Assembly (NCBI GenBank): GCA_963831435.1
Contig: CAWHQK010000082.1
Location: 22,741 to 86,740, forward strand
DNA from: an uncultured Acidobacteriota bacterium
Lineage (GTDB): Bacteria; Acidobacteriota; Terriglobia; Terriglobales; Acidobacteriaceae
DNA length: 64,000 nt
Direction of reading: 5' to 3'
Shown: in pieces, positions 35,868 to 53,736 of the stretch
Layout: each line of letters opens with the position of its first letter
Numbering within the stretch: the first letter of the stretch is position 1
Notes under the pieces: generated by a model
What the model was told of the DNA's origin: nothing
The model's input: only the letters and a program-made list of their open reading frames with translations
Database searches by the model: none
Program-made: the position numbers and the translations under genes

Positions 35868-35878
35868 GGAGATGCCTG

Positions 35879-37606
35879 TTAGGGGTTCGAAGAGTTGCCT
35901 TCTGTGACCGTGAGAATCTGATCAGCCTTCACATTTTTCAGCGTCTGCGCCGTGCCGCTCGGCCAATGAATCTGAATTTCACTCGCGGAATTGGCGCTGC
36001 CCAACCCAAAGTGTACACGCTTATCACTCGATGATTCGTAGCTTCCAGCGGTGGTCACCGTCGCGTACTGCGCTCCGCCGCCTGTCATGATTTTAATTCG
36101 GGCTCCGATTGCATCCCGATCGCTCTTGGTTCCCACAAGCTTAAGCGTGAGCCAGTGATTTTGCGTCGGGGTTTCGTTGATTAAAATCCATGCGGGACCG
36201 TTGTTCGAAGTGACGACCACGTCCATCTTTCCATCATTGTGAATATCGCCGATTGCCATTCCACGCGCGGCCCATTTCTGCTGAAAAACGTCCCCAGATT
36301 GCGCGGAAACATCCACAAATTTCTTTCCCTCCTTGTTCCAAAGAAGCAGCGGCGATTCCTTGTAGTGGAGATGCGGCTCGTTGATTTCAATTGTGTCCAT
36401 CACGTGCGACTGCGTAATGAATATGTCCTTCCATCCGTCGTTGTCGTAATCCACGAATCGCACGCCCCACCCGGAATGGAGCAGACTGATGGTGCCCAGC
36501 CCGGTCGTGTTGGTGGAATAGTTGAAAGTTCCGTCTCCGGCATTCTGGTAGAGCGCGTACCTCTGATTGGCCAAATCGGTAATAATCACGTCCGGCCAGC
36601 CGTCGTTGTCATAATCCTCGAAGTCCACCCCCATGCCTGCAAATGAAGCCCCGCCGCCATCAAGGGCCACGCCGGAAACCAGCCCTATTTCTTCAAATGT
36701 ACCGTCACGCTTATTGTGAAAAAGAGATTCAGGAATGGAATCATTGGCAACAAGTACATCCGGCCATCCATCGTGATCGTAATCCGCAATGGCGACTCCC
36801 ATTCCTTTGATCGGTTTATCGAGGCCGGCTTTTTGCGTTACGTCGGTAAACTTTCCGTTGCCATCATTGTGGTACAGGATGACAGATATAGGTTTGAAGA
36901 TATCGGGATGGCAATAGGAGCGATATCCAGCCTTCCGTTCGCCACAATACAAATCGTCAAAATCCCACTGCATGTAGCGCGCAACCAGCAAATCCAATTT
37001 GCCGTCGTTGTCATAATCGAACCACGCCGCGCTAGTGGCCCAGCCGGAACCCGCAACACCGGCGGCATTTGTGACATCGGTGAAAGTGCCGTTGCCATTG
37101 TTGTGGTACAAAGTGCTCCGGCCGTAGCCCGAGACAAATAAATCTTCGTAGCCGTCGTTATCGTAGTCGCCGACTGCCACCCCGGTGCAGTAGCCAATCC
37201 CAATCAAGCCTGCCTTTTCGGTCACATCTTCAAACGTGCCGTCAGGTTTTTGGTGAAATAAACGGTTCCAATATTTCGGGCTGGTCTTTTGCGGAATGGT
37301 CCCTTTGGGAGTCGGATCCTCGATCGGCGCGCCATTGGCAAAAAAAATATCGAGGTGGCCGTCGTTGTCATAGTCGAACAGGGCGACGCCAGAACCCATG
37401 GTTTCCAGTAAATATTTCCTGCTGGTTGGAGAAGCCTGTTGTTGAAAGTGGACTCCAAGCTTTTCGGTTGCATTCACAAAGAGGCCGGGGGTTGGAACTG
37501 CAACAGAAGCAGAAGAAGGCTTACCAGTTTGACCAAAAGAACAAATTGACGCGACCAAGACCGCAAACAAGCACATCCAGGCCGGAACAATGCGCACCTT
37601 GTTCAT
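35879..37606 (-). CDS. CRTAC1-family protein (FG-GAP/VCBS + ASPIC/UnbV)
   Basis: The ATG at 37606 gives signal peptide MNKVRIVPAWMCLFAVLVASICSFG. Repeats DYDNDGHLDIFFAN, DYDNDGYEDLFVSG and LYHNNGNGTFTDV. C-terminal module: NHWLTLKLVGTKSDRDAIGARI...HFGLG...IQIHWPSG. Confidence 0.88.
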   Translation of the reverse strand: MNKVRIVPAWMCLFAVLVASICSFGQTGKPSSASVAVPTPGLFVNATEKLGVHFQQQASPTSRKYLLETMGSGVALFDYDNDGHLDIFFANGAPIEDPTPKGTIPQKTSPKYWNRLFHQKPDGTFEDVTEKAGLIGIGYCTGVAVGDYDNDGYEDLFVSGYGRSTLYHNNGNGTFTDVTNAAGVAGSGWATSAAWFDYDNDGKLDLLVARYMQWDFDDLYCGERKAGYRSYCHPDIFKPISVILYHNDGNGKFTDVTQKAGLDKPIKGMGVAIADYDHDGWPDVLVANDSIPESLFHNKRDGTFEEIGLVSGVALDGGGASFAGMGVDFEDYDNDGWPDVIITDLANQRYALYQNAGDGTFNYSTNTTGLGTISLLHSGWGVRFVDYDNDGWKDIFITQSHVMDTIEINEPHLHYKESPLLLWNKEGKKFVDVSAQSGDVFQQKWAARGMAIGDIHNDGKMDVVVTSNNGPAWILINETPTQNHWLTLKLVGTKSDRDAIGARIKIMTGGGAQYATVTTAGSYESSSDKRVHFGLGSANSASEIQIHWPSGTAQTLKNVKADQILTVTEGNSSNP

Positions 37607-37780
37607 GAACAGAATTAGACCATAGCGCAATAGCCGCGCGGCAGCATCTAGCAAGGATTCTACAAGATCGGGCGCGCCGGAGCCACTCCCAGAGATTCTT
37701 GCGGACAGTTTTGCCGAAACAATTTTACTAAGAAGGCAATGATCTATGAGCTTTTCAAGGTGATCTGGGAACAGATTCCA

Positions 37781-40150
37781 TTACCCCCGCTGAGCGACAA
37801 CCTCAAACTGTCGTTCGTTCCCTGTACGAATAATCACAGTGTCGTGATTTCGGCCACCGAGACTTGCCTGGCTGCCGTTTACTTTGACACTCTCCAACTT
37901 AGCGCGGAGTGGAAGGCGTAACTTTATCTGGACTTCTTTCGGGCTTCCTGAGCGCGCCAGTTCAACGTGGGCCGTCACTGTATTTGCCGACGATTTCATG
38001 TTCAAGTTCACTTTTCCCCAACGTGTTGGCGCACGGTCGATTCTTATCTCCTTACCGGAAGCCAGCCAGTCGCGGGGAATGCCCTTGGCGAAGTAGAGTT
38101 TGTCTTCGTCGGAATCTTCAAGCACGAGCATCCAGCGCACGAGCAATGGAATGGTGAGTTGCGCGGGAATGCAAAAAAGCGCGCGGTCGCCGTCAATCCC
38201 TGAGACTTCGCCCGCTATCCAACTTCCCCGCGTGTGGTCGTGATAGCGGTGCGAGTATAGGAACAACAGGTATTCCTCAATGCGATCTAGGCGCAACAGC
38301 ATCTGCGCGTATCCATAGGAAATAAAGCCGAGGATGTCGCGGCCTTGCGGATGCGGCCGCTCAACATTGGCGACCACACCCAGAGTGGTGGCCCCGTAGG
38401 CGCGCATGCAATCAATCACGAGGTTGGCCATGTCGTCCGGAAGCATGTCGGCTTGCAACAACTCGGAGTACGCACGGTGCGCCCATTGCTGCGGCGATGG
38501 TCTTTCCCTTTCCATGGACTCGCGAAACATGAGCTTTGCGCCGGGAAAGAGTCCGATATATGCAGGGTTCACATCGTTGCGAATATTCTTTCGAATGCTG
38601 GCGACGACGGCGTCCTGCAATGTCTTGCTGCGTTTTGCCCAGGCCGCGGCTTGGGCGCCACTCTGGCGGTTAACCTCGGGCCACGTCTGGCTGATATCTC
38701 GCAGCCCGCGGGCAGTAAATGCGTTGTGAGAAAAATACGGCAGCCACCAGATTTCCGGATTGGGCATGAGGCAGGAGTCTGATTCGCTCCAGCCGTGAAT
38801 CAGTCCGTGGCCCGGATCATCTTGAGGCAATCGCAAACTCTCATCATGAAGTTCAGCGAGCAAGCTCGCTGTCGCTTCAATTTTAGAGCTGTGTTTTGCG
38901 AGGAGATCGCGGTCCTGCGTGTAATTAAAATACCGCGCCAGCAGAGACAGCGTCATGCCAAATTGCGCAGTTTCAGGTCCGCGCATATTGATCATGCCTT
39001 TGGCATCAACGAAACTTGTGAAGTAGTTATCAATGATTCCGCGCGCCTGCTCAAAACGCCCCCATTCCAAATTGCTGTAGACGGCGCTGGTAAAAATATC
39101 CTGGAAGCCATCGTATTCAGAACCGTAGTAATCGCGGTCCACGGCGCCATACTTTGGATACACTCCGCCCGGGCGCACCATGAGTTCTTTGGCGAACGCA
39201 TGCTTCGACATATCCACCCAGACATTTTGTGGAAGAGAAGCGGAAGCGAAATCGCTCAGAAGGTCGTCCCAGTAACCGACAAATATCAGCAGGGCGCGGT
39301 AGAACTGTTCGGGCTTAGGGTCCTCACGTCGCGGCGGAAAGGCGGGATAGCTATAGCCATACATCACTTTTACAATTTTGCCGTTCTCAATTCTTGCCGT
39401 GCGATGCCAGGTTTGCACAATGAACCGGTCGTGTGCAGCGACATCGCCGAACAGAATGACCTCATCGTAGGAGCCACTTTCCGTGGAGCTATCTTCCGCG
39501 AAGAGTACTTTGCGGACGGCAGGCATCCATCCACCGACCAGGCCGTCCATTCGTTTGCGCTGGAGTCTGCGGCTTCCTTCGGGAAAGAATTGCACTGGAT
39601 GGTAGGTCCGTGTGCTGCCATTGGAGAAAACCGGCATCGTATCGGAACATTCTTTCGTGCCCACGAAGGCATCCCAAGGCAAACGCCAGCTCGGCCCTTC
39701 TTCTTTTTTCGATCCCTGGGGCGGCGCGGCTGATTTGACCATCTCAGGGTCCGGGTCGCCGCCGCCCTGCAACAGGCGCTCCGCCAGCAGGTCCGGGCCG
39801 GACATGCCGATATCTTTCATGTTTATCCCGAGATTCGGAGGCCCTGCTTCGGCAAACGCGGCCTCGGCGCTCTTGGGAAGAATGCGCGATCCGCGGGCGG
39901 AGATAAAAGTGATGACTCCATCCCGCGTGCGCAGATCTTCATAAACCTTCCACGGAGTTGAATCAATCCTGAACTCGCATAGAAGAGTGTGGCCTTCGAT
40001 ATCCGGTTCGTGGTGAACAAGGCCAACGTCCAGCGTCTTACTCGGATCAGCGCCGCTTTGCTCACGCTCCTGTGCTGAGGCGAGCGCCGGAAGATAGTGG
40101 AGCGCCGCAGTCGTTACCGCGGCATTTTGGAGGAATCTTCGTCGGTCCAT
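37781..40150 (-). CDS. Tat-exported large hypothetical protein (789 aa), possibly an (alpha/alpha)6-barrel glycoside-hydrolase-like enzyme
   Basis: Twin-arginine signal MDRRRFLQNAAVTTAALHYLPALASAQ. The helical C-terminal two-thirds and the terminal beta region (KLYFAKGIPRDWL...RWGKVNLNM) are reminiscent of GH barrels, but no signature was recognised. Confidence 0.6.
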   Translation of the reverse strand: MDRRRFLQNAAVTTAALHYLPALASAQEREQSGADPSKTLDVGLVHHEPDIEGHTLLCEFRIDSTPWKVYEDLRTRDGVITFISARGSRILPKSAEAAFAEAGPPNLGINMKDIGMSGPDLLAERLLQGGGDPDPEMVKSAAPPQGSKKEEGPSWRLPWDAFVGTKECSDTMPVFSNGSTRTYHPVQFFPEGSRRLQRKRMDGLVGGWMPAVRKVLFAEDSSTESGSYDEVILFGDVAAHDRFIVQTWHRTARIENGKIVKVMYGYSYPAFPPRREDPKPEQFYRALLIFVGYWDDLLSDFASASLPQNVWVDMSKHAFAKELMVRPGGVYPKYGAVDRDYYGSEYDGFQDIFTSAVYSNLEWGRFEQARGIIDNYFTSFVDAKGMINMRGPETAQFGMTLSLLARYFNYTQDRDLLAKHSSKIEATASLLAELHDESLRLPQDDPGHGLIHGWSESDSCLMPNPEIWWLPYFSHNAFTARGLRDISQTWPEVNRQSGAQAAAWAKRSKTLQDAVVASIRKNIRNDVNPAYIGLFPGAKLMFRESMERERPSPQQWAHRAYSELLQADMLPDDMANLVIDCMRAYGATTLGVVANVERPHPQGRDILGFISYGYAQMLLRLDRIEEYLLFLYSHRYHDHTRGSWIAGEVSGIDGDRALFCIPAQLTIPLLVRWMLVLEDSDEDKLYFAKGIPRDWLASGKEIRIDRAPTRWGKVNLNMKSSANTVTAHVELARSGSPKEVQIKLRLPLRAKLESVKVNGSQASLGGRNHDTVIIRTGNERQFEVVAQRG

Positions 40151-40177
40151 ATCCTTATATACCTTCTATACCTTCGT

Positions 40178-42495
40178 CTAACGCCTGGTAACCGGCGCCC
40201 GGTCTTCTTTAATCTCAAAATTTTCCGGTGGCGTCACTCCCAGCAGATATTGCACGAAGTAGTCCCATCGCCGCCGCGCCAGATAATTGCTGTTTTCGCC
40301 GTGATACATATTGGGCACGAACAGCATGTCAAAGTTCTTGTTCGCCTTCATCAACGCATCGGCAAAGCGCATGGTTTCCACTGGATGAACGTTGTCGTCA
40401 ATGTCGCCGTGCTCAATCAAAAGATGCCCCTTCAAGTTTTTGGCAATGGTGACGTTGGATTGCGCTTCATAGTCGCTCCCAACTGGATATCCCTGGTAGG
40501 CCTCATTCCACCAGGCTTTATCCAGACGTGGGTCGTGATCCCCTGAAATGGAAACGGCGACTTTGTAGAAGTCAGGGAATACGAGCATGGCGTGCGCGGC
40601 GCCGTAGCCACCCGCGGAGGTGCCGTAGATTCCGACATGATTGATGTCCATATACGGATACTTTGCCGCCATCTGTTTGATCATCGCCACATGATCTTCA
40701 AAAGCGCCGCCGAGATTGTGATACGAGAACAAATGGAAGGCGTGAGAACGTCCAATGGTGCCTCGGCCATCTACCATGACGACGATGAAACCCAACTCCG
40801 CCATGGATTGCAGGCGCATGGTATTAAATGTTTTGGGAACAAAGAATCCTTGCGGTCCCGTATAGACCTGTTCAACGATCGGATATTTTTTCGAGGGATC
40901 GAAATTGGAAGGGCGCCAGATCAGGCCGTAAAGATCAGTAGTGCCGTCGGCCGCTTTGCCCTGGAAAGGTTCAGGAAATTTCCAGCCCGTCGCGAGAAGT
41001 TTGCCGGCGTCGGTTTTTTCAAGGACGCGAACTATGGAGCCGTCCTTGGTGCGGCGTAATACAGATTCCCCGGCAGGTCCGGACGAGAGTAGTTATCCAC
41101 GAAGAATTTTCCGTCCGGCGAAACACTCACGGTGTGGTCGGCATTCTCTGGAGTGAGTTGGGTGAGCCCCTTGCCATCGAAACCAATGCTGTACAAATGG
41201 GACTGATAAGGATCTTCGCCCTTTTCCCGGCCGTTTGCCCGAAAGAATATTCGACGCTCCTTCTCGTCAACGTGCACAATCCGGTCAACTACCCACGGGC
41301 CAGAGGTAACCTGGTTTTCCAGTTGTCCCGTGTCCGCGTGATAAAGGTAGATGTGATTCCAGCCGTCTTTCTCTGAACTCGCCAACAACTCATTGCTGGC
41401 ATGCACGAAGTGAAAGAAGGTTTCTCCGGGATCCAGATACTGGTCGGAGTGTTCCCGGAACAGCACCTTCTCCTCGCCCGTCTCGGGATTGATGACTCGG
41501 AACTCTTTGGTTTTGTATCCACGATCATCGGCATCGTAGTAAATGGTCTTGCTGTCCGGGAACCATTCGAATCCGGGGCCCTCCTGAAAGGGCAGTTCTA
41601 TCGCATCGGTCTTCACCTCGATGCGTTTTCCCGACTGAATGTCAAAGATGATGGGTTGTGCTTTCGCCAGTACCTCTCCCGGCAGGGGATACACATAGGT
41701 GTATGCCTTGGGTCGGAGCTGGCCCGGGGGAACGAACTGGAGGCTGGTAAAGCGTCCGGCGTTCCTCGAATCAAGGCGGTAGGTAATTAATTTTGATGAA
41801 TCGGGAGACCAGAAGACGGCGGCCTGCTGTTTTGGTTCATCGGTGCCCTGCTGGACCAAGAGACGGAGAGAAGGAAGCGGAGTCGCATAATCGCAGCTGC
41901 GAACTCCGTCGTGTGTCAACTGAACGATTTCTCCGGTGGAAACATTTCTTACGTACAGGTTGTAGTCCTGCACGTAGGCTGCCCACTTTTTGTCGGGAGA
42001 CAATGATTCATAGGGATTTTCGGCGGGATCCTCATGGCACTGGTAGTCGGCGAGAGTGCAGGTCCAGGAACTTTTCTCAATACTAAAGTGAATTGCGTTC
42101 CCTTCCGCGAATTCGAGGTCCTCAAGCGGCAAGTCGTTGGCTTTGTATTCGTGCTTCGATGCCCGGGTGAGCGCTGCGGCGAGCTTCTCATGATCGAACG
42201 CAGGGGCGCTGCTGTTCTTCTCCGCATCCACGAGGATGTATTCGATTCCATCCATTCCGACCCGGCGATACCAGAAGCGGCTGGTTTTTTCGATCCAGTT
42301 CGGTCGTACATCGGCGATGTAAACCAAGTGCCGCACATTCCCGCGAAGGAATCGCTCCGCGCGCTGGTAATCCTGGACCGTGCCTTGAGCGAAGGCATGC
42401 TGCGGCATTAGCCCGAGAAGTCCGAAGGCGGTCGCAAACACAACACAGCGGCTGATCTTTCCCAATCTCAATGAACGAATCGCTAAAAGTTCCAT
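40178..42495 (-). pseudogene. S9-family dipeptidyl peptidase IV-like serine peptidase, interrupted by one -1 frameshift
   Basis: The N-terminal propeller ORF (41032-42495, WSPDSSKLITYRLD) and the C-terminal alpha/beta-hydrolase ORF (40178-40819, GIYGTSAGGYGAA) belong to one gene. By hand translation the downstream frame stays open back to about 41060 (LRRTKDGSIVRVLEKTDAGKLLATGWKFPEPFQGKAADG...). The frames switch at the GGGG run (plus-strand CCCC, 41068-41071). Confidence 0.8.
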
Positions 42496-42503
42496 CCCAG
42501 CTC

Positions 42504-43651
42504 CTAACGTGATTGAATTCTCACCAGAACAACTCCGTGCCTTGGCACAAAGGCGCTGTAACTCTCCTTAAACGTGCCGAGATCCTTGTGTAGCCACAAG
42601 TCGCGAATGCTGGCTTCGCTTTGCACTCCGATTTGCGAGAAGTTGACTGTCATCTGCTCGGTCGTGCGCTGGCGGTTGAATAAACCGACAACTTTGCTCC
42701 CATCCGCCATGGGCTTCATCCAAACTTCGAATGGTCCTTCCTGAGACACTCGATACCCCTGTTTGCCGAGCGGGTCCTGGTCCACGGCGATGACTTCGCG
42801 GTTGGTAAGAATTTCGAGCGTGTAGGGCGTCATTCTCGACAGGTCATTTCCAGCGATCAGCGGGGCTGCAAGAATGGACCACAGGCTGAAGTGCGTGCGG
42901 TATTCGTCGTCATTCATTCCTCCATTGCCAACTTCGAGCATGTCGGGATCGTTCCAGTGTCCGGGCCCGGCAAACTTTTCCAGTCCATTCTGGTTAAATC
43001 CAATTTCCGCCATGACGCGATAGTCATCGGAAATATCGCCGGTAGTGCGCCACAAGTTGCCGCCGACGGAAGGCCCCCACTCCCAAACCTTGTTCCAGCC
43101 GTACTCGCAAAGACTGAATACGATGGGCCGCCCTGTTTTCTTAATCGCATCGTGCATTTTTGTGTACGCCGCGATCATTTGGTCACGCGTGCCGCTGGAC
43201 TGGCACCAGTCGTACTTCAAGTAATCAATGCCCCAGTTCGCGTATGTCTGAGCATCTTGCTGTTCGTGTCCCACACTTCCCTCGAATCCCGCGCATGTTT
43301 TGCGGCCGGGGAGGAGTAAATCCCAAGCTTGAGGCCTTTGCTGTGAACGTAGTCAGCCAGCGCTTTCATGTCGGGAAATTTTTGGTTGGCCTGCATGAAC
43401 CCGTTGGCGTCGCGTTGGCCCTGCCAGGTATCGTCAATGTTGAGGTAAATGTAGCCGGCGTCTCGCAGTCCGGTTGACACAAGCGCATCGGCGGTGGCGC
43501 GCACGGTTTGGTCGTCAACCCGCTCGGCGAAGTGGTTCCAACTGTTCCAGCCCATCGGCGGGGTTGCCGCTAGATTTTGTTGAGCGAAAGACGGCAAAAT
43601 GGAAAGGCAAAAAAAGATCGAGCACAACCAGGCTTTGTTCAGCAAGCGCAT
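42504..43651 (-). pseudogene. GH27 alpha-galactosidase-family glycosidase, interrupted by one -1 frameshift
   Basis: Signal peptide [26 protein letters not shown]27 motifs [29 protein letters not shown] and (in the next frame) [33 protein letters not shown]. The frame switches near 43303-43308. Confidence 0.8.
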
Positions 43652-43709
43652 TTGGATTCCTCTCATAAGCGATACGGATGTAGTTCGACCTTTCCTACTT
43701 CGCACTGAA

Positions 43710-44840
43710 TCAGGCATGAGCTTCGCTACGTACCATTCTTGACGGGAGATATGGTTCGAGAGCGATGACGGACTTCCTCTGTAAAAGCTGGTCCACCAAA
43801 AGCCGCGCGGTTGCCAGCGACGTGGTAATTCCCAGCCCTTCATGCCCAGTCGCCAGATATATTGTTGGATCCGTGGGCGAGGGGCCGATCAACGGCAGTT
43901 TGTCCGGCGTAGCGGCGCGGAATCCGCTCCAGATGCGAATTGCCAGCAATGCTCCCAGGCCAGGCATATATTCCGCGGCGCGCCGAACCATCCGGGCAAG
44001 AATGCCGCTGTCTATTTCTTTGTCTTCCGCACCGTATTGCCGGGAGGAACCAATGAGTACCTGTCCGGTTTTGCGCGGCTGTACGTTAAAAGCCACAGAA
44101 TCTTCTGTAGTGGAATGCGCACTCTTCAAATACCCCAGCTCAACCAGTTGGTGGCTTACGAAGCCCGGATAACGGTCGGTGATAATGAGGTGGCCTTCCC
44201 GCTTGTTGATCTCAATTCCGGAGACAATTCAGCGGCGTTAGCGCCGGCGGCATTCACTATGTGTTTTGCCATGATTTCATTGCCATCGGCAGTACGAATG
44301 CTTCCCTGCTCTATGCGCGTGACCGGAGAACCAAGAAAAAGCTTTGCGCCATTGGACTGGGCGCGCTCCATCAGAAAACGCGCGGCGCACGGAGCGTAAA
44401 GGACGGCATCTTCGGGAACCAGCAGACCTCCAGCCAGTCCTTTACGCAAATTACGGTTCAAGCAATTCCAGCTTTTTTGCGTCGAGGGTCTCTGCCGGCA
44501 CTCCGCGCTGGCGATAGAATTTTTCTTTGCGCCGCACTTCGGCCATCTCTTCTTCATCCGCAGCTACCCAAATTGTTCCGGTTTGTTCGTACTCAACGTC
44601 GGCGGGCAGTTCATTTCGCAATTCCAGCCAGAGCTGTTGTGAATAGCGGGTCAAGGCAAATTGGGCATCGGAGTCATCCATCGCCACGATGTGCCCCATC
44701 CCCGCGGCTGTCGCTCCGCCTCCGATGAAGTCGCGGTCTATCACCGCGACTCGCATTTTCTGCCGGGCACATTCATCCGCGCAGGCCGCACCTACTATGC
44801 CGCTGCCAACGATGGCGACGTCGTATGTGATTGCGCTCAA
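43710..44840 (-). pseudogene. lhpB: FAD-dependent DAO-family oxidoreductase (D-hydroxyproline dehydrogenase beta-subunit-like), two frame breaks
   Basis: Dinucleotide fold YDVAIVGSGIVGAACA. Three successive ORFs (44451-44840, 44156-44557, 43710-44129) read continuously if a T near 44453 is removed (EP-NLRKGLAGG) and a base is added near 44218-44221 (ELSPGIEINKREGHLIITD). The symbol is assigned by context only. Confidence 0.7.
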
Positions 44841-44925
44841 GCTGAATATCCTGCGTGGGCCTAGGTAGCCGTATGATGTTGATCAATTCGAGGCCAATTT
44901 TTAATTGCCTCTGTTGCCGCCACCT

Positions 44926-44954
44926 ATATTATGGATACAATATCCAAACGTCAA
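44926..44954 (-). promoter_or_regulatory. sigma70-like promoter with a palindromic operator in the spacer (upstream of the lhpB-like gene string; divergent from the permease)
   Basis: The minus strand reads TTGACG-TTTGGATATTGTATCCA-TAATAT (17-nt spacer). The spacer contains the palindrome TGGATA-TTG-TATCCA. It is nearly identical to 53708-53736. Confidence 0.6.
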
Positions 44955-45055
44955 ACCTATACCCAATGCGAAATGTAAAGATCGCTCTCGCTGGTCGGAA
45001 TCTCTACAGCCCGCGCCCTCGCTCGCTCCGATATGTCCTTAAAAGAGGCCCTGGC

Positions 45056-46565
45056 GTGGATGACCAACGGGCAGCCGAAATATTGGCCGGCAATCCAGAA
45101 ACAACCGACCAGGAATTTTCTCGCGGCTTAGGCCTCTTCGATTCCGTCATGGTCGTCACTGGCGTGATGATCGGCTCGGGGATATTCATCGTTTCGGCTG
45201 ACATGGCCCGCAATATCGGGAGCGCCGGCTGGCTGCTCGTGGCTTGGGCGGTAGCCGGCGTGCTCACGATCGCAGGAGCCCTTTGCTACGGGGAACTCTG
45301 GCAATGATGCCGCAAGCCGGGGGAATGTACGTTTACCTGCGCGAAGCGTATTCGCCGCTATGGGGCTTTCTCTACGGATGGACCCTTTTCACCGTCATCC
45401 AGACCGGAACTATCGCGGCTGTGGCTGTAGCCTTCGCGCGATTTCTTGGCGTGCTGTGGCCTTCCATTTCAGAAGATAAATATCTCGTTTCCCCATTCCG
45501 GTTTTCTACACACTACGCGTTGTCGCTTTCTACAGCGCAGGCCCTCGCAATTGTTGCCATTATCCTGATCACCTTCACCAACACTCGGGGACTGCGCTAT
45601 GGAAAATTAATCCAGAATGTTTTCACCGTCGCCAAGATAGGCGCGCTGGCTGGGCTGATTTTGCTGGGCATTTTTGTGGGACGCAACGCAACCGCGTTGC
45701 GGTTGAATTTCAGCCATGCATGGCACGTACACAATGTGACAGCGATTTCTACAGGGCTGGACGCAACCACTGCGCTCGGCCTTTTTGTTGCGATCTGCGT
45801 AAGCCAGACAGGATCGTTATTTTCCGCGGATTCATGGCACAACATCGCTTTCGCGGCTGGCGAAGTCAAAAGGCCGGAGCGCAATGTGACTCTGGCCATG
45901 GTCATTGGCACGACCGTCGTGATCGCACTCTACCTGCTGGCGAACTTCGCTTATTTGTTCACGCTTCCCTTACAGGCAATCCAGCATGCCCCCGCGGACC
46001 GGGTTGGAAGCGCTACGCTCGAGGCGATTATTCCGCACCTTGGAGGCGCCTTGATGGCTGGCGCGATTATGATTTCGACCTTTGGAACCATCAATGCGCT
46101 CATTCTGACTGGCGCTCGCGCGTACTATGCCATGGCGCGGCAAAAATTGTTCTTTGCCTTCGGGAGCAAGCTGAACCAGGTAAAAGTTCCCGCGTCTGCG
46201 TTATGGATTCAAGCGCTTTGGGCCGTCGTGCTGGTATTGCCCCGCACTTACAATCCGGCAACCGGCCAGTGGGAAATCTTTATAGCAATCTCCTGGACTA
46301 CGTCATTTCCGTGGCTTTGATCTTCTATGTGCTGACGGTGGCCGCGGTTTTCCGGCTCCGCATAAAACGGCCTGATGCCTCCCGGCCTTATCGCACTTTT
46401 GGATATCCCTACGTGCCGGGGCTTTATATACTCGGAGCAAGCACGATTCTGGCCGTCTTGTTTATTTACCGCGCAGCGACAACCTGGCCCGGATTGATTA
46501 TTGTCATCCTCGGAATTCCCATTTATCTTCTGATTCGTCACGGGAATAAGATGGAGCAGCATTAG
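45056..46565 (+). pseudogene. APC-superfamily amino-acid permease, two frame breaks
   Basis: GTG at 45056 follows AAGAGG. Motifs GLGLFDSVMVVTGVMIGSGIFIV and (next frame) MPQAGGMYVYLREAYSPLWGFLYGW. The breaks are near 45299-45301 and at the GGG run 46271-46273 (QW-GNLYSNLLDYVISVALIFYVL). Confidence 0.75.
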
Positions 46566-46606: not shown

Positions 46607-47335
46607 ATGGCTATGGACAACACATCTGGGGCGATTCCGCGCCAGTCGCTCAGTTCCGCGGTGGCGGAGAAGCTCCGCAACCAGATTATCCGGGGAGAAA
46701 TTCCCGAGGGATCGCAATTACGCCAGGATGACATTGCACTGAAATATCACGTGAGCCGCATCCCGGTCCGCGAGGCATTGCGGCAGCTGGACGCGGAAGG
46801 GTTAATCACAATTGTCCCCAATCGCGGGGCGATCATCCCGCAGTTGTCGCCGAATGACATTGAAGAACTGTTCGCAATCCGCGCTCTGTTAGAGCCTGAG
46901 GTGCTGATGCTTTCCATCCCCCGGCTCACATCAACGGACTTCGTCGAAGCGGAAGCCGTATTAAATAAATATGTGGATGAGTTGCAACAGGAGTCGCACA
47001 TCGCAACCTGGGGCCAGCTCAACTCCCAGTTTCACTCCATCCTTTATTCGCGCGCTGAGCGGCCGCATTTCATGTCCATTATTCGCAACGTGAATCACAC
47101 CGGGGAGCGCTATACGCGGTTGCAACTTTATCTCACGCATGGCATGAAGCGTGCGAATGAAGAGCACCATCAAATTCTCGAATTGTGCCGGAATCGCGAA
47201 GTCACAGCCGCCTGCCAACTCTTGCGCGAACATATCCAGCATGCCGGGCAGTCTCTTAAGCAGGTGGTACAGGAAAGCCACCAGATGGCTAGGCCCGTGC
47301 ACAAACAGCGAGCAGCCAAAAACCCGCCTCTCTAA
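46607..47335 (+). CDS. GntR-family transcriptional regulator with FCD ligand domain (HypR-like by context)
   Basis: Winged-helix segment: LRQDDIALKYHVSRIPVREALRQLDAEGLITIVPNRGA. FCD-type helical C-terminus with His residues (FHSILY, EHHQILE). Confidence 0.85.
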   Translation: MAMDNTSGAIPRQSLSSAVAEKLRNQIIRGEIPEGSQLRQDDIALKYHVSRIPVREALRQLDAEGLITIVPNRGAIIPQLSPNDIEELFAIRALLEPEVLMLSIPRLTSTDFVEAEAVLNKYVDELQQESHIATWGQLNSQFHSILYSRAERPHFMSIIRNVNHTGERYTRLQLYLTHGMKRANEEHHQILELCRNREVTAACQLLREHIQHAGQSLKQVVQESHQMARPVHKQRAAKNPPL

Positions 47336-47378: not shown

Positions 47379-50153
47379 TCAGTCGTGAAGCGTGATCACC
47401 GTCATGCCCTTATCGAGGGGAATATCATAGGCATTGCGTTCGAGTTTTAGATCGCCAGTAGGATGATACTTTCCCACGCCATTTATCTCCGCAGGTTGTT
47501 CCACGCGCAGGCGCGCGGTGGAGGTAAACTCCGTGGCCGCGGCAAGTTCGATGCGCACCGCACCGCCCTTCACAATTTCCACGCTTTCGAATCTTCCAGC
47601 ATCAAGGCTCAGCCAAAGACCAAGTGAAGCCAGGTATACGCGGGAGCGATAAGCATCGAGGGGCACGACCTTCACGCTGCCATTATCGCTTTTGAGATTG
47701 CCGCCGAAAGCGACCCAGCCGAACTGCGGCGAATTGACAACATACGTAGCGGTGTTCCACGCGTAGCCAAAAAAGTTTGGTCCGTAATCGCCTGAGTACG
47801 GATCGAGCTTCAACATATCGGGGAAGGCGTGGAATGCGGCTGAAGCGAAACCCTCGCGATCAATATCGGTGAGAGCACCCATAGTTCCGCCATATCCCAC
47901 GCGCAACAGATAAAGATCATCAGGATGGTCGCGATATTCTGAGAGAAGCGGTATGGCATTTAGACCGGAACCGTAATGATGAAGTTGGCGCTCAAGGCGG
48001 CGGTCTTTGGCTGCGAAAATAAAATCCCAATAGCGACGGGCGCTGCCGTTATATCCCCAGTGTGGAATCGCAGGATCATAGCCAAGGATTGCGTTCAGAG
48101 TGACCTCGGCTTTGTCCTGGTAACCAAAATATTTCGTCCACGCGTACACTTCTTCCTGGCCGGTTGAGTCCCAGGGCATTTCGCTTCCGAATGGATAGGC
48201 CTCCATCTTCCAGCGGTCGGCGCGTGACTTCATGCTGGCTTCCAGATTGTTAGCTTCTGTGTTCATCCCTTCGCGCTTAAGGTCGGTCAAAATCTGAAGA
48301 AAGATGTCGCCTTCCATTTGGCCGAAGACTCCGAGACCCGCCGCATACTTCGTCATTGCCATCGAAGTTTCGTAAGCGTGATTCAAATACCAATCCCAGG
48401 AATGGTTCGTCACGAGGCCGGGATTGTTCCGGGCCAATTGATAGAGCACCCAATAAGCGGCCGCAACATGCGGGTAGTCATAAGAACGGTCAACCTGGTA
48501 CGCCGCCTTTTTGTTCCAGCTCGTCCAACTCTTCCAGTCGAGGTCGCTGCGATAGTAGCCTTGGGGTAGTTCATCGGGCTGATAGTAGAAAAGGCTCTTT
48601 CGCACGCCATATGGATCAGGGCCATCTTTTTCCTGCAGGCCGCCCCACAAAACGCCGTCCACGTACTCCTGTAACTTCTGGATTTCTTCTTTGTCAGGTT
48701 CCACCAATTCCTTCATCATTGCGGCCAGCCAGGCTCCGGCGCCGCCTTCGTCACTCAATCCTGCAATCCAGACACGGCTGTCCTGCGTCACGAACTGATT
48801 GACTTCGCGGTCATAGCTTATTACGGATGGACTACGATGAAAGGGATCGTGCGGATCCCCAAACCATTGCTTCGTGGTCAGAAAGTGGCCCATGTCGGCC
48901 ACGACTTCGGCCTCAGGTTTCGTGACGAAATACTGAATGGTCTGCACCAGGCCGTCTTGGTAGGTAATGGTGAGACGCGAGCGTCCCCAAGCCTTACCAT
49001 CCACGGTATAGGCCTTCCATCCCGCCGAGGATGGAACATCCTTTGTTATGACCAGCGCTCCCGTCGGCTCAACTTGCAATGACTTAACACCTTGGGAATA
49101 ATTCAGGAAGAGCCGCGCGTGAATATCCGTCGGCACTACGTAGCCCGGGATTCCTACCGCCACCGGACGACGATTCGCTGCCAGCGTTTTTTCGATATCA
49201 TGAATTGAATCTGAAACAAGAAATTTAAGGCCGAAGGACTTGACTTCGCCCGGGGCGAGCATCAGTGACGTCCCGGGATTCCATGGTTGCGCATTTTTCC
49301 ATTCATTCTCGGCGTATGCCCGGCTGTAAACCATCCACTGATAAAAGCCCTCAAAAGTAATCCCCCGCGGCGTTGGATCGGTAAAAATCGGCGCGGCTCC
49401 CCAGGGCCCTTTTCGATCCAGGATTGGGTTATAAGCTTCAAAGGGAGTTTTCCCTTCCGGCACAACAACCAGGGTGGGCCCATGGCCGCTGAGCCGCGTG
49501 ACTTGCAAATATCCGGCATCTTCACCGATGTAGGGATCGTAGAACGAGCATTTGGCGTGCGCCTCTTCGAGAGAACGATCGTTGAGTACATTATTGAAGA
49601 TCATCGGAATGCCCAGCGCCCCCACTTCAATGGGCTCCGATTGCTTGTTCTTCAGTTCAAATCGCAGCACGAGTTTGCCATCTTCCAAGAGCCATTTGCG
49701 AACAATCTGGAGCGGGAAACCCGATGGCAGCGTCGGCGTCAGATCAGCCGCGGCGAGAACGCCAGGCGACGAAGGAAGCGATGCAACGGGCACCCGCGCG
49801 GTGGCCGTCGAATAATTTTGCCAGTCGCCGGATTTACTGGTCCGCAAACGCAACGTGATGTCGCCCAGATGGAAATATCCATCTTTGGATCGTTCCACCA
49901 GCAGATCTGCGGGAGTGAAGTCGAAGCCCTCCGAGCGTTTCGGCTTAAGGGCGGCAACTGTTTGCGACGATCGCACCAGGCTCAGCGTGAAATCAGGCGT
50001 ATCAATTGTTTCGGTCCCCTGCTTGAGCATGGGACCTGGAGTTGGTGGAGATTTGTGAGGGTTTCCCTGGCCTTGGGTTTGCTTTTCCAGCGCTATAAAC
50101 AGGCACAACAGGAGCGCACACCACACCACGGAGCGCGAATGATAGTTTCCCAT
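47379..50153 (-). CDS. large secreted hypothetical protein (924 aa), possibly DUF5695-like; candidate glycan-active enzyme
   Basis: Signal peptide SVVWCALLLCLFIALEKQTQG and a long intact ORF. It starts 53 nt downstream of, and in the same orientation as, the hydroxyproline operon. The family name is recalled, not verified. Confidence 0.6.
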   Translation of the reverse strand: MGNYHSRSVVWCALLLCLFIALEKQTQGQGNPHKSPPTPGPMLKQGTETIDTPDFTLSLVRSSQTVAALKPKRSEGFDFTPADLLVERSKDGYFHLGDITLRLRTSKSGDWQNYSTATARVPVASLPSSPGVLAAADLTPTLPSGFPLQIVRKWLLEDGKLVLRFELKNKQSEPIEVGALGIPMIFNNVLNDRSLEEAHAKCSFYDPYIGEDAGYLQVTRLSGHGPTLVVVPEGKTPFEAYNPILDRKGPWGAAPIFTDPTPRGITFEGFYQWMVYSRAYAENEWKNAQPWNPGTSLMLAPGEVKSFGLKFLVSDSIHDIEKTLAANRRPVAVGIPGYVVPTDIHARLFLNYSQGVKSLQVEPTGALVITKDVPSSAGWKAYTVDGKAWGRSRLTITYQDGLVQTIQYFVTKPEAEVVADMGHFLTTKQWFGDPHDPFHRSPSVISYDREVNQFVTQDSRVWIAGLSDEGGAGAWLAAMMKELVEPDKEEIQKLQEYVDGVLWGGLQEKDGPDPYGVRKSLFYYQPDELPQGYYRSDLDWKSWTSWNKKAAYQVDRSYDYPHVAAAYWVLYQLARNNPGLVTNHSWDWYLNHAYETSMAMTKYAAGLGVFGQMEGDIFLQILTDLKREGMNTEANNLEASMKSRADRWKMEAYPFGSEMPWDSTGQEEVYAWTKYFGYQDKAEVTLNAILGYDPAIPHWGYNGSARRYWDFIFAAKDRRLERQLHHYGSGLNAIPLLSEYRDHPDDLYLLRVGYGGTMGALTDIDREGFASAAFHAFPDMLKLDPYSGDYGPNFFGYAWNTATYVVNSPQFGWVAFGGNLKSDNGSVKVVPLDAYRSRVYLASLGLWLSLDAGRFESVEIVKGGAVRIELAAATEFTSTARLRVEQPAEINGVGKYHPTGDLKLERNAYDIPLDKGMTVITLHD

Positions 50154-52425: not shown

Positions 52426-52684
52426 CGGTCTGAACCTTCATGCCAGATTCGCAAACGATTTGGCAACTTCGGCGATGCCGCTTTCCATTAATTACCACGC
52501 GACATTCAAAACAAATTCCCATTCCGCATAGTGGTCCGCGCTGTTGTCCCTTCACCGAGCGGCGGCAAGCTCCGCCTTGGCGCGCGACCGCAACAGCTAC
52601 AGTGGTGCCATAATTCACTGTCACGGGATTTCCATTTACCGCAATCGTGATTTGTTTCCCAACTTTTTCCATTACTGGCGTCAT
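52418..52684 (-). CDS. lhpF: small (2Fe-2S)-binding subunit (HcnA / D-Hyp dehydrogenase gamma-like)
   Basis: 88 aa. Motifs [12 protein letters not shown]...[25 protein letters not shown]. It overlaps both neighbouring genes (8 nt and 4 nt). Confidence 0.75.
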
Positions 52685-53707: not shown

Positions 53708-53736
53708 ATTTTATGAATACAATATACAAACGTCAA
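53708..53736 (-). promoter_or_regulatory. sigma70-like promoter with a conserved operator-like spacer upstream of the hydroxyproline operon
   Basis: The minus strand reads TTGACG-TTTGTATATTGTATTCA-TAAAAT. The spacer matches the 44926-44954 promoter at 15 of 17 positions. It lies about 75 nt upstream of the epimerase ATG. Confidence 0.6.

What the first reader, a model, noticed from the sequence alone, without database searches (positions are those of the whole stretch)
37781..44954. Hydroxyproline-type promoter appears to drive a gene string of Hyp dehydrogenase, GH27, prolyl dipeptidyl peptidase and an unknown Tat-exported 789-aa protein: a possible utilisation locus for hydroxyproline-rich glycoproteins (extensin / arabinogalactan-protein)
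Seen in sequence: four co-oriented genes follow the 44926-44954 promoter with short spacers. These are 58 nt (43710 to 43651), 8 nt (42504 to 42495) and 27 nt (40178 to 40150).

Established knowledge: GH27 contains alpha-galactosidases and beta-L-arabinopyranosidases. S9B peptidases release Xaa-Pro dipeptides. Plant extensins and AGPs are Hyp-rich proteins decorated with arabinose and galactose.

The neighbourhood also holds GH51 and GH43 arabinan-active enzymes, a PPIase-domain protein and TBDRs.

Inference: the locus couples deglycosylation and proteolysis of Hyp-rich plant cell-wall glycoproteins to Hyp catabolism. I am not aware that this combination has been described as a defined bacterial system.
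Basis: inference. Interest (0 to 1): 0.7.

Follow-up and report, generated by a model that had tools for sequence, protein, structure and literature searches.

The report
Hydroxyproline glycopeptide utilisation regulon, soil Acidobacteria
A soil acidobacterium places exported sugar-cleaving and proline-specific peptide-cleaving enzymes, including two enzyme families nobody has characterised, under the same control element as its hydroxyproline-burning pathway, which points to candidate enzymes for how bacteria release hydroxyproline from plant cell-wall glycoproteins.

Summary
The four-gene string is real. It runs lhpB-like flavoenzyme, GH27, S9B prolyl peptidase, then a 789-aa Tat-exported protein, with spacers of 58, 8 and 27 nt. 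In this window three of the four genes carry single-base indels. Four metagenome contigs of the same species (97-98% identical) have all four genes intact, so the indels are most likely assembly errors.

The string is half of a larger unit. The window also holds a TonB-dependent receptor, hypE-lhpF-lhpE-lhpC-DUF5695, an amino-acid permease and a GntR/FCD regulator. A 29-nt promoter with an embedded palindrome (GGATATTGTATCC) precedes both lhpB and hypE, with 26 of 29 bases identical.

Across 80 related acidobacterial genomes, the palindrome recurs upstream of hypE, the peptidase, GH27, GH127, receptor, regulator, DUF5695 and 789-aa genes (25 sites against 0.7 expected). The 789-aa gene lies beside aerobic Hyp genes, the anaerobic glycyl-radical Hyp dehydratase, or both.

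The 789-aa protein models confidently as a six-hairpin glycosidase-like enzyme and matches no Pfam, NCBIfam or PDB sequence.

The coupling of Hyp catabolism to exported hydrolases is well supported. The substrate assignment (extensin or AGP) remains an inference. In the commonest architecture, the 789-aa, DUF5695 and GH31 genes stand alone without Hyp genes.

The parts
44926..44954 (-). Promoter-like site TTGACG-17-TAATAT. The operator palindrome GGATATTGTATCC (44945-44933) lies in its spacer. It sits in the divergent region between lhpB and the permease.
   Evidence: It is 26/29 identical to 53736-53708.
43710..44840 (-). lhpB-like DAO-family flavoprotein, the beta subunit of D-hydroxyproline dehydrogenase (376 aa when intact). 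It has no signal peptide. In the window it carries two compensating 1-nt indels near 44454 and 44220.
   Evidence: Pfam DAO on all three fragments. Intact 376-aa gene in L082-L085. Orthologues at 62-70% identity sit inside hypE-lhpB-lhpF-lhpE-lhpC clusters of relatives.
42504..43651 (-). GH27 glycosidase with a Sec signal (382 aa when intact). It is most similar to plant alpha-galactosidases. In the window it has a 1-nt indel near 43311.
   Evidence: Melibiase_2 + Melibiase_C. PDB 1uas/6f4c E 4e-104, against beta-L-arabinopyranosidase 3a21 at 3e-73. Indel shown.
40178..42495 (-). S9B prolyl di/tri-peptidyl aminopeptidase with a signal peptide (772 aa when intact). In the window it has a 1-nt deletion at 41068 (G4 against G5).
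   Evidence: DPPIV_N + Peptidase_S9. Best PDB match is P. gingivalis prolyl tripeptidyl peptidase 2d5l, E 3e-61, with the Ser/Asp/His triad aligned. Indel shown.
37781..40150 (-). U789: a Tat-signal 789-aa protein of an unclassified family. Its architecture is N-terminal beta-sandwich, (alpha/alpha)6 barrel, C-terminal beta-sandwich. It is a candidate new glycoside hydrolase.
   Evidence: No Pfam, NCBIfam or PDB sequence hit. AF2 pLDDT 91, pTM 0.92. Foldseek hits to GH95-like, GH78, GH116, GH94, GH65, GH127 and GH121 structures, with TM only 0.3-0.44. More than 1400 cluster representatives.
35879..37654 (-). FG-GAP/ASPIC-UnbV protein. It is a possible continuation of the transcription unit, followed by two TPR genes (34827-35867 and 33583-34830).
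   Evidence: Pfam. In L082 the gene call starts 22 nt after the U789 stop. No terminator-like site was found between them.
45033..46565 (+). APC-family amino-acid permease (511 aa when intact), divergent from lhpB. In the window it has 1-nt indels at 45042, 45300 and 46271.
46607..47335 (+). GntR/FCD (FadR-subfamily) regulator, the candidate HypR-like repressor of the regulon.
   Evidence: Pfam GntR + FCD. It is 47% identical to the GntR that directly precedes U789 in L021-type loci. The exact protein occurs on 22 metagenome contigs.
47379..50153 (-). DUF5695 protein (924 aa, signal peptide), the last gene of the hypE operon.
   Evidence: PF18951, 1328 bits. It lies within 3 kb of U789 in 23 of 80 relatives. 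The AF2 model was poor (pLDDT 54) and was not interpreted.
50207..51130 (-). lhpC-like DHDPS-family enzyme (pyrroline-4-hydroxy-2-carboxylate deaminase type).
51127..52425 (-). lhpE-like Pyr_redox_2 alpha subunit of D-Hyp dehydrogenase.
52418..52684 (-). lhpF-like 88-aa 2Fe-2S (Fer2_4) gamma subunit.
52681..53634 (-). hypE, 4-hydroxyproline 2-epimerase.
   Evidence: Pro_racemase. NCBIfam NF010577, 452.5 bits against a cut-off of 442.
53708..53736 (-). Second copy of the promoter/operator (TTGACGTTTGTATATTGTATTCATAAAAT), upstream of hypE.
53826..57866 (-). TonB-dependent receptor (CarboxypepD_reg + OMP_b-brl_4). It has weaker operator-like sites at 57905-57957 upstream and a terminator-like hairpin at 53803-53789 downstream. 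In the window it is split by at least 6 single-base indels.

Best explanation
The four genes are one arm of a GntR/FCD-controlled regulon that lets this Terriglobales acidobacterium feed on hydroxyproline-rich glycopeptides. The most likely source is plant or algal cell-wall HRGPs.

Proposed sequence of events (all steps are inferred except the gene content and the motif):
1. A TonB-dependent receptor brings glycopeptide fragments into the periplasm.
2. Exported enzymes strip the sugars. These are GH27 (alpha-galactosidase type), U789 (a new six-hairpin glycosidase-like enzyme), DUF5695 and, in relatives, GH31 and GH127.
3. The S9B prolyl aminopeptidase (plus DUF885 or M28 peptidases in relatives) cuts the Pro/Hyp-rich backbone.
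4. The APC permease imports Hyp or small peptides.
5. HypE, the three-subunit D-Hyp dehydrogenase (LhpB from this string, LhpE and LhpF from the other operon) and LhpC convert Hyp to 2-oxoglutarate semialdehyde.
6. The repressor binds the GTATA-N3-TATAC-type palindrome that lies between the -35 and -10 boxes. Hyp or a pathway intermediate releases it.

In this species lhpB sits apart from lhpE and lhpF. The two units must therefore be co-expressed to make an active dehydrogenase, which explains the near-identical promoters.
For: Gene content and spacing.

Intact locus in the same species on four independent metagenome contigs.

Shared promoter/operator: 26/29 identical, with flanks unrelated, so this is constraint rather than recent duplication.

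The operator is strongly enriched in relatives. There are 25 sites with at most 1 mismatch in 1.5 Mb, against 0.67 in local shuffles. The 9-mer occurs 32 times against about 4 expected.

Operator sites lie upstream of hypE, DPP, GH27, GH127, TBDR, GntR, DUF5695, ProDH and U789.

One relative (L013/L090) has a nine-gene co-directional row with spacers of at most 35 nt or overlaps: hypE-lhpB-lhpF-lhpE-lhpC-DPP-GH31-U789-TPR. Its TBDR and GH127 share a divergent region that carries operator-like sites with 2-3 mismatches.

L073, L075 and L079 place DUF885-U789 and DPP-GH27 next to the aerobic Hyp operon. In L073 and L075 the glycyl-radical Hyp dehydratase HypD flanks the other side; L079 has only its activase. 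HypD in L048 scores 1304.7 bits on NF043068 against a cut-off of 1100; the L073 and L075 copies are 85-86% identical to it.

U789 has a glycosidase-type fold. Distant U789 relatives sit in CAZyme loci with GH106, apiosidase and GH97.

GntR/FCD HypR repressors of Hyp operons are known. The S. coelicolor footprint TACAATGTCAC shares the TACAAT core (PMC6608401).
Against: - There is no expression or biochemical evidence.
- The window holds no GH127 or GH31 and no 2-oxoglutarate-semialdehyde dehydrogenase was seen among the ORFs scanned.
- In about 20 relatives the U789/DUF5695/GH31 triad stands alone with a LacI-like GAAAACGTTTAC motif and no Hyp genes within 10 kb.
- The GH31 partner is most similar to alpha-xylosidases, and alpha-xylose is not known on HRGPs.
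- U789's TM-scores to every solved glycosidase are below 0.5, and no catalytic residues could be assigned.
- DPP-IV-type enzymes classically do not cut X-Pro-Pro bonds, so their use on Hyp4 blocks is uncertain (from established knowledge).
- The related loci are phylogenetically related, so the counts are not independent.
Confidence: 0.55

Rival explanations
1. This is a Hyp/Pro-peptide regulon without a glycoprotein focus. The receptor, S9B peptidase, permease and Hyp pathway handle Pro/Hyp-rich peptides from any source, such as collagen or gelatin from soil fauna, or deglycosylated plant peptides. The glycosidase genes serve other glycans, for example collagen Glc-Gal-Hyl, or are passengers in a CAZyme-rich genome region.
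For: - The best solved relative of the peptidase is P. gingivalis prolyl tripeptidyl peptidase (2d5l), which the literature, as I recall it, links to collagen-peptide breakdown.
- GH65 PGGHG, the collagen glucosidase, is among the better structural matches to U789 (TMt 0.49).
- GH31 could be an alpha-glucosidase.
- Proline dehydrogenase is also in the regulon.
Against: - GH127 (founding member is the Hyp-beta-L-arabinofuranosidase HypBA1), GH27 and U789 carry the same operator and are co-transcribed with Hyp genes in several architectures.
- Collagen glycans need no alpha-galactosidase or GH127.
- The surrounding island is plant-cell-wall directed, with GH43 arabinanase and GH51.
Confidence: 0.17
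2. U789, DUF5695 and GH31 form a stand-alone oligosaccharide module, for example for an alpha-xyloside-containing hemicellulose or a pectic side chain. Its proximity to Hyp genes in some genomes, including this one, reflects genome shuffling within carbohydrate islands and not a shared substrate.
For: - The commonest architecture is GH31<-DUF5695<-|->U789 with a LacI/cre-like motif and no Hyp genes within 10 kb.
- GH31 is closest to xyloglucan alpha-xylosidases.
- Distant U789 homologues sit beside GH106/apiosidase or GH97/GH144-type genes.
- A GH74-like BNR/sortilin protein is a neighbour in L021-type loci.
Against: - U789 is embedded inside Hyp operons, not merely near them, in at least four different gene orders.
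- It is linked to two non-homologous Hyp pathways.
- The GntR operator or the GntR gene itself directly precedes U789 in L007, L021-type and L061 loci.
- In this species both U789 and DUF5695 have been split from each other, and each is appended to a Hyp transcription unit.
Confidence: 0.2
3. This is a decaying locus. The frameshifts in three of the four genes mean the string is being pseudogenised in this organism.
For: The window has five 1-nt indels relative to L082 within lhpB, GH27 and DPP, four of which break the reading frames. More indels lie in the permease and receptor genes.
Against: - Every indel is absent from L082-L085 (four metagenomes) and from the 99.95%-identical L001.
- The DPP indel shortens a G5 run to G4. 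Relative to a 97%-identical strain, the GH27 indel lies next to a G run and the lhpB indels do not.
- Indels occur at about 1 per 5 kb across the window, including in genes of unrelated function, which is typical of an unpolished long-read assembly.
- The flanking 789-aa and 924-aa ORFs are intact.
Confidence: 0.03

Closest known systems
Bifidobacterium longum hypBA1/hypBA2/hypAA cluster and the Xanthomonas euvesicatoria XCV2724-2729 cluster (degradation of Hyp-linked beta-L-arabino-oligosaccharides)
   Same: Exported glycosidases are clustered to strip sugars from HRGPs. The Xanthomonas cluster even has an adjacent prolyl oligopeptidase gene, a pseudogene there (PMC6085000). GH127 genes belong to the same operator-defined regulon in relatives of this window.
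   Different: - Those clusters harvest arabinose, and no Hyp catabolic genes are described in them.
- Here the hydrolases are wired to Hyp catabolism, a TonB receptor and a GntR regulator.
- The window itself has no GH127. GH121 was not tested, and the GH43 present is an endo-arabinanase type.
- Instead the window has U789 and DUF5695, both of unknown activity.
Bacterial L-hydroxyproline catabolic operons with GntR/FadR-type HypR repressors (Sinorhizobium meliloti, Streptomyces coelicolor SCO6289-6294; Pseudomonas lhp genes)
   Same: The enzyme set is an epimerase, a DAO-type beta subunit, a small Fe-S gamma subunit, a Pyr_redox alpha subunit and a DHDPS-type deaminase, with a GntR/FCD regulator. 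The operator contains TACAAT, as in the S. coelicolor footprint (PMC6608401).
   Different: - Those regulons are described for free Hyp.
- Here the regulon also includes periplasmic glycosidases, prolyl peptidases and an outer-membrane receptor.
- lhpB is detached from lhpE and lhpF to head the hydrolase string.
Six-hairpin (alpha/alpha)6 glycoside hydrolases (GH95, GH78, GH65, GH116, GH94, GH121, GH127, GH142)
   Same: U789 has the same three-part architecture: beta-sandwich, (alpha/alpha)6 barrel, beta-sandwich. Foldseek probability is 1.0 with E values down to 3e-10.
   Different: - Identity is 9-13% and TM-scores are 0.3-0.44.
- No sequence-level match was found to any Pfam, NCBIfam or PDB entry.
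- No catalytic residues could be transferred.
Polysaccharide utilisation loci (TonB-dependent receptor plus periplasmic hydrolases plus a dedicated regulator)
   Same: The logic matches: outer-membrane import of oligomers, periplasmic trimming, then cytoplasmic catabolism under one regulator.
   Different: - None of the neighbouring ORFs scanned matched a SusD family.
- The system is acidobacterial, with FG-GAP/ASPIC and TPR accessory genes.
- The cargo would be a glycopeptide, and the catabolic end-point is an amino acid.

Membership tests
GH27 (clan GH-D alpha-galactosidase / beta-L-arabinopyranosidase) | Melibiase_2 catalytic TIM barrel plus C-terminal beta-sandwich | tested here: met
   PF16499 and PF17801 on both fragments and on the intact 382-aa L082 gene. 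PDB 1uas E 4e-104.
GH27 (clan GH-D alpha-galactosidase / beta-L-arabinopyranosidase) | Catalytic Asp pair (nucleophile in the YLKYD motif, acid/base in the NDPDML motif); residue roles recalled from rice alpha-galactosidase | tested here: met
   LKYDWC and WNDPDMLEVGNG are present in the translation. The roles of these residues are from memory, not tested.
GH27 (clan GH-D alpha-galactosidase / beta-L-arabinopyranosidase) | Alpha-Gal versus beta-L-Arap specificity | tested here: inconclusive
   It is closer to plant alpha-galactosidases (352 bits) than to SaArap27A (250 bits) or Abp (133 bits). The discriminating residue was not rigorously aligned.
Peptidase S9B (DPP-IV / prolyl tripeptidyl peptidase) | N-terminal beta-propeller (DPPIV_N) plus alpha/beta-hydrolase domain with a Ser-Asp-His triad | tested here: met
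   PF00930 and PF00326. GTSAGG, the Asp and the His align to the 2d5l triad.
Peptidase S9B (DPP-IV / prolyl tripeptidyl peptidase) | Dipeptidyl register (Glu-Glu motif) versus tripeptidyl register (Glu636 of PgPTP) | tested here: inconclusive
   PgPTP Glu636 aligns to Lys, with an Asp adjacent. No WVYEEE-like motif was seen by eye before the FWSP motif. No rigorous alignment to DPP4 was made.
D-hydroxyproline dehydrogenase beta subunit (LhpB type) | DAO-family FAD protein encoded with Pyr_redox alpha, 2Fe-2S gamma, Hyp epimerase and DHDPS-type deaminase | tested here: met
   DAO domain. Partners lie at 50207-53634. Orthologues at 62-70% identity sit between hypE and lhpF in relatives. The subunit scheme follows PMC6608401 Table 2.
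D-hydroxyproline dehydrogenase beta subunit (LhpB type) | Oxidation of cis-4-D-Hyp | not testable with these tools
   NCBIfam gives only sub-threshold ThiO and D-amino-acid dehydrogenase hits.
Tat-exported protein | Twin-arginine motif (S/T-R-R-x-F-L-K) followed by a hydrophobic region and an AxA site | tested here: met
   MDRRRFLQNAAVTTAALHYLPALASAQ, read. The R-R-F residues are invariant in close homologues. Export itself was not tested.
Any classified glycoside hydrolase family, for U789 (incl. GH121, GH127, GH142, GH146, GH95) | Significant sequence similarity to family members | tested here: not met
   No Pfam hit in 42 diverse members. No NCBIfam hit. No PDB sequence hit with a single sequence or a profile. 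dbCAN HMMs were not available.
Six-hairpin glycosidase fold, for U789 | (alpha/alpha)6 barrel flanked by beta-sandwich domains | tested here: met
   AF2 pLDDT 91, pTM 0.92. 69 PDB matches with E <= 1e-3; the 50 listed are nearly all six-hairpin glycosidases or glycoside phosphorylases.
Bifidobacterium/Xanthomonas-type HRGP arabinoside system (GH127 + GH121 + GH43 HypAA) | Presence of GH127, GH121 and a HypAA-type GH43 in the locus | tested here: not met
   There is no GH127 in the window by tblastn, and the GH43 is endo-arabinanase-like. GH127 is present and operator-linked in 24 of 80 relatives.
HypR-type GntR/FCD Hyp regulon | GntR wHTH plus FCD domain regulator, with a palindromic operator upstream of Hyp genes | tested here: met
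   Regulator at 46607-47335. The operator is conserved and enriched. DNA binding and the effector are not testable here.

The most novel reading that the evidence does not exclude
U789, and possibly DUF5695, found new glycoside hydrolase families whose job is to cleave sugars attached directly to hydroxyproline. The targets would be the core beta-L-Araf-Hyp or beta-Gal-Hyp bond, or the arabinoside chain in species that lack GH127/GH121. To my knowledge no enzyme is known for the Gal-Hyp bond. This would be the missing step that yields sugar-free Hyp peptides for prolyl peptidases and then for either the aerobic or the glycyl-radical Hyp pathway. The regulon would then be the first defined bacterial system for complete mineralisation of HRGP glycopeptides, operating in abundant uncultured soil Acidobacteria.
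Probability: 0.22. Interest if true: 0.85.

Novelty: new variant of a known kind. Interest (0 to 1): 0.64.

Why it matters
- Hyp-rich glycoproteins are a large pool of plant-derived carbon and nitrogen. [quoted passage not shown]
- This regulon supplies a concrete, testable candidate set for that gap: U789, DUF5695, GH27, GH31, GH127, the S9B peptidase and DUF885.
- It also supplies a predicted operator and regulator.
- It gives a nutritional role to Terriglobia and 'Acidiferrales', which are abundant but mostly uncultured soil bacteria.
- U789 is a large family with no Pfam model and a confident glycosidase-like fold. It has more than 1400 cluster representatives at 50% identity. Its characterisation could define a new CAZy family.

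Tried and rejected
1. Pseudogene reading. Rejected: all indels are absent from five near-identical contigs.
2. Sequence-level assignment of U789 to a known family. Nothing was found with Pfam (single sequence and 42 members), NCBIfam, or PDB by phmmer and by profile.
3. Homology between U789 and DUF5695 by hhalign. None found (probability 0.4%).
4. DUF5695 structure. AF2 on a shallow alignment (72-89% identity) gave pLDDT 54, so no fold search was run on it. The PDB profile search was empty.
5. The search for related loci with the diverse alignment failed because no stretch was conserved enough. It was repeated with close homologues.
6. Exact look-up of the 100%-identical DUF5695 protein P0271: not on record.
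7. Names for distant U789 relatives: none.
8. GH43, GH51 and the PPIase-FG-GAP gene as parts of the system. There is no operator near them, and GH43 is a pectic endo-arabinanase type. They are treated as neighbours only.
9. A riboswitch or other RNA in the 5' regions: no Rfam hit in 33000-58500.
10. Intrinsic terminators within the string. Only weak intragenic matches were found, at the chance rate (21 against 18.7 expected).

Full report
**OBSERVATION**

The minus strand of 37781-44954 carries four co-oriented genes.
- lhpB-like gene stop 43710, GH27 start 43651 (58 nt spacer);
- GH27 stop 42504, peptidase start 42495 (8 nt);
- peptidase stop 40178, 789-aa gene start 40150 (27 nt).

Each downstream start has a Shine-Dalgarno-like motif. 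Pfam confirms the four family assignments:
- DAO-family flavoprotein;
- GH27 (Melibiase_2 + Melibiase_C);
- S9B peptidase (DPPIV_N + Peptidase_S9);
- nothing for the 789-aa protein, which starts with a twin-arginine leader.

In the window as given, only the 789-aa ORF is open. The flavoprotein gene is in three pieces, and GH27 and the peptidase are in two pieces each.

**THE FRAMESHIFTS ARE ALMOST CERTAINLY ASSEMBLY ERRORS**

A short-read contig 99.95% identical to 35463-41442 differs by one indel, G5 instead of G4 at 41068. That restores the peptidase frame.

Four JGI metagenome contigs (L082-L085) are 97-98% identical over up to 20 kb. They carry the whole locus with every gene intact: 376, 382, 772 and 789 aa with the same 58/8/27-nt spacers.

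The reading-frame breaks in the window coincide with single-base indels relative to L082. The list includes seven in the neighbouring receptor gene and three in the permease gene. That is roughly one per 5 kb across genes of unrelated function.

**THE STRING IS HALF OF A HYDROXYPROLINE UNIT**

Upstream on the same strand lie:

| Coordinates | Gene |
|---|---|
| 57866-53826 | TonB-dependent receptor |
| 53634-52681 | hypE, 4-Hyp epimerase (NCBIfam NF010577, 452.5 bits, cut-off 442) |
| 52684-52418 | 88-aa 2Fe-2S protein |
| 52425-51127 | Pyr_redox_2 protein |
| 51130-50207 | DHDPS-family enzyme |
| 50153-47379 | 924-aa DUF5695 protein |

Between the two arms, on the plus strand, are an APC permease and a GntR/FCD regulator (46607-47335).

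The DAO protein is thus the beta subunit of a three-subunit D-Hyp dehydrogenase. This subunit scheme is summarised in PMC6608401. Its alpha and gamma partners sit in the other operon.

**SHARED CONTROL ELEMENT**

The site at 44954-44926 reads TTGACGTTTGGATATTGTATCCATAATAT. It is 26/29 identical to 53736-53708, just upstream of hypE, while the flanks are unrelated.

A 20-mer search allowing 3 mismatches finds only these two sites, against 0.01 expected. The raw count of sigma-70-like hits is no better than chance, so the argument rests on conservation, not on the consensus match.

The palindrome GGATATTGTATCC lies between the -35 and -10 boxes. It also overlaps a candidate -10 (TACAAT) of the divergent permease promoter.

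**COMPARATIVE EVIDENCE**

The 789-aa protein (U789) has over 1600 close homologues and more than 1400 cluster representatives at 50% identity. Those homologues that carry a source name are from Terriglobales, Acidiferrales/Acidoferrales or unclassified Acidobacteria MAGs.

A scan of species-representative genomes returned 80 loci, almost all labelled as Acidobacteriota MAGs. Counts of genes within the 10-kb flanks of the U789 orthologue:

| Neighbour | Loci (of 80) |
|---|---|
| GH31 | 33 |
| DUF5695 | 24 |
| GH127 | 24 |
| Orthologous S9B peptidase | 14 |
| DUF885 | 13 |
| Aerobic Hyp genes | 8 |
| GntR | 8 |
| GH27 | 7 |
| Proline dehydrogenase | 5 |

Many contigs are short, so these are lower bounds. 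The gene orders differ:
- hypE-lhpB-lhpF-lhpE-lhpC-DPP-GH31-U789-TPR as one tight nine-gene row, with a TBDR and GH127 nearby (L013/L090).
- GH27-DPP-GH31-U789 (L008).
- GntR-U789 convergent with GH127, next to proline dehydrogenase (L021 type).
- In L073 and L075, a glycyl-radical Hyp dehydratase and its activase, then DUF885-U789, then a convergent DPP-GH27, then hypE-lhpBFEC. L079 is the same but has only the activase.

The glycyl-radical enzyme of L048 scores 1304.7 bits on the NCBIfam HypD equivalog (cut-off 1100), and the L073 and L075 copies are 85-86% identical to it. U789 is therefore tied to two non-homologous routes of Hyp catabolism. This is the strongest single argument that its substrate contains Hyp.

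**THE OPERATOR IS CONSERVED**

GTATATTGTATAC with at most one mismatch occurs 25 times in 1.5 Mb of these loci, against 0.67 in local-composition shuffles. The core 9-mer occurs 32 times against about 4 expected.

Sites lie upstream of hypE/permease, DPP, GH27, GH127, TBDR, GntR, DUF5695, proline dehydrogenase and U789.

The window's GntR is 47% identical to the GntR that precedes U789 in L021, with a near-identical recognition helix region. GntR/FCD HypR repressors of Hyp operons are known. The S. coelicolor footprint TACAATGTCAC shares the TACAAT core (PMC6608401).

**WHAT THE UNKNOWN PROTEINS ARE**

*U789.* It has no Pfam hit in 42 diverse members, no NCBIfam hit and no PDB sequence hit.
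- AlphaFold2 on a 42-sequence alignment gives pLDDT 91 and pTM 0.92. The architecture is an N-terminal beta-sandwich, an (alpha/alpha)6 barrel (about 279-675) and a C-terminal beta-sandwich.
- Foldseek finds 69 PDB matches at E <= 1e-3. The 50 listed are nearly all six-hairpin glycosidases or glycoside phosphorylases. They include GH95-like 2rdy, GH78, GH116, GH94, GH65 (including PGGHG), ExoMA2, GH127 HypBA1 and GH121 HypBA2.
- TM-scores are only 0.3-0.44 and identity is 9-13%.
- Invariant acidic residues are D119, D457 and E647; near-invariant ones are E455, E562 and E677. They are candidates for catalysis but could not be assigned.
- Distant family members sit beside GH106/apiosidase or GH97/GH144-type genes.
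- U789 is best described as an unclassified glycosidase-like family.

*DUF5695.* It remains opaque. The model was poor (pLDDT 54), there is no PDB match and it shows no profile similarity to U789.

*GH27.* It is closest to plant alpha-galactosidases. That would fit the Ser-alpha-Gal of extensins (established knowledge), but specificity is untested.

*The peptidase.* It is closest to P. gingivalis prolyl tripeptidyl peptidase rather than DPP-IV.

**MOST LIKELY MECHANISM (INFERRED)**

1. The receptor takes up Hyp-rich glycopeptides.
2. GH27, U789 and DUF5695 deglycosylate them in the periplasm. GH31 and GH127 take part in relatives.
3. The S9B peptidase trims the backbone.
4. The permease imports Hyp or short peptides.
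5. HypE, LhpBEF and LhpC carry out cytoplasmic catabolism.
6. A Hyp-responsive GntR repressor controls the whole set.

In this species lhpB heads the hydrolase string. Enzyme activity therefore requires both units, which rationalises the duplicated promoter/operator.

**CAVEATS AND RIVALS**

- In about 20 relatives the triad GH31<-DUF5695|U789 stands alone with a LacI-like GAAAACGTTTAC motif and no Hyp genes nearby. The GH31 resembles alpha-xylosidases. A stand-alone glycan module that is sometimes recruited to Hyp loci is therefore a serious rival.
- A general Pro/Hyp-peptide (collagen) reading is possible but does not explain GH127 or GH27.
- The window lacks GH127 and GH31.
- GH43 (endo-arabinanase type) and GH51 have no operator. 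They are neighbours only.
- No experiment was possible.

**NOVELTY**

HRGP arabinoside-degrading clusters are known in Bifidobacterium and Xanthomonas, the latter with an adjacent prolyl oligopeptidase pseudogene (PMC6085000). HypR-controlled Hyp operons are also known.

I found no description of a regulon that joins them, and none in Acidobacteria. The enzymes that free Hyp from glycoproteins are explicitly called an open problem (PMC6219649).

I rate this a new variant of known kinds, with two uncharacterised protein families as its most interesting content.

Noticed in passing
window 41068, 43311, 44220, 44454, 45042, 45300, 46271, 53980, 55333, 55914, 56207, 56469, 56957: Single-base indels relative to near-identical metagenome contigs break at least six genes. 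The density is about 1 per 5 kb, and some lie in or next to G or C runs. This suggests an unpolished long-read assembly. Any ORF-based reading of this window needs frameshift-tolerant translation.
   Followed up: yes
L009, L016, L030, L033, L035-L037, L041, L045, L046, L050, L058: intergenic region between DUF5695 (-) and U789 (+): A different conserved motif, GA(A/G)AAACGTTTAC (LacI/cre-like), replaces the GntR-type palindrome in the commonest architecture. This implies that the U789/DUF5695/GH31 triad is sugar-regulated in most species.
   Followed up: partly
L048 1343-4711; L073 4628-7903; L075 2231-5596; L079 7057-7947 (activase only): A glycyl-radical trans-4-hydroxy-L-proline dehydratase (HypD) and its activase occur in Acidobacteriota MAGs, next to DUF885-U789. 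In L073 and L075 they occur together with the aerobic Hyp operon, so two Hyp routes sit in one locus.
   Followed up: partly
window 23002-24852, 27778-30474, 35879-37654, 58037-59764, 60941-62674 (with TPR genes at 21601-22803, 33583-35867, 59768-60919, 62738-63727): There are five FG-GAP/ASPIC-UnbV genes, one fused to a PPIase domain, each paired with TPR-protein genes and often next to TonB-dependent receptors. The same pairs recur around U789 in 30 of 80 related loci. Their function is unknown. The GGATATTGTATCC palindrome also occurs at 63785-63773, upstream of one such unit.
   Followed up: no
L027 5866-7653, L048 8044-9924, L079 8070-9902 and 10 other loci: A DUF885 (PF05960) gene lies immediately upstream of U789 or of GH31-U789, often preceded by the operator. 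From memory this family has a zincin-peptidase-like fold, but I did not test that.
   Followed up: no
window 30476-32473 (-): A 665-aa ORF between the PPIase-FG-GAP gene and the GH43 arabinanase has no Pfam, NCBIfam or PDB sequence match.
   Followed up: partly
window 40151-40177 (-): The 27-nt peptidase/U789 spacer contains a short direct repeat, GAAGGTATA GAAGGTATA, followed by TAAGGATATG. Its significance is unknown.
   Followed up: no
window 37753: A 4-nt length difference from L082 (the window lacks TTTC), just downstream of the U789 stop, changes the called start of the FG-GAP gene (627 aa in L082 against 575 aa in L001). L001 shares the window's version, so this is probably real strain variation.
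   Followed up: partly
L021 5423-8752 (-), also L010, L018, L020, L022, L040: A roughly 1100-aa BNR/Sortilin-Vps10-type protein is transcribed divergently from GntR-U789, with the operator between them. These Pfam hits are, from memory, typical of GH74-like double propellers.
   Followed up: no
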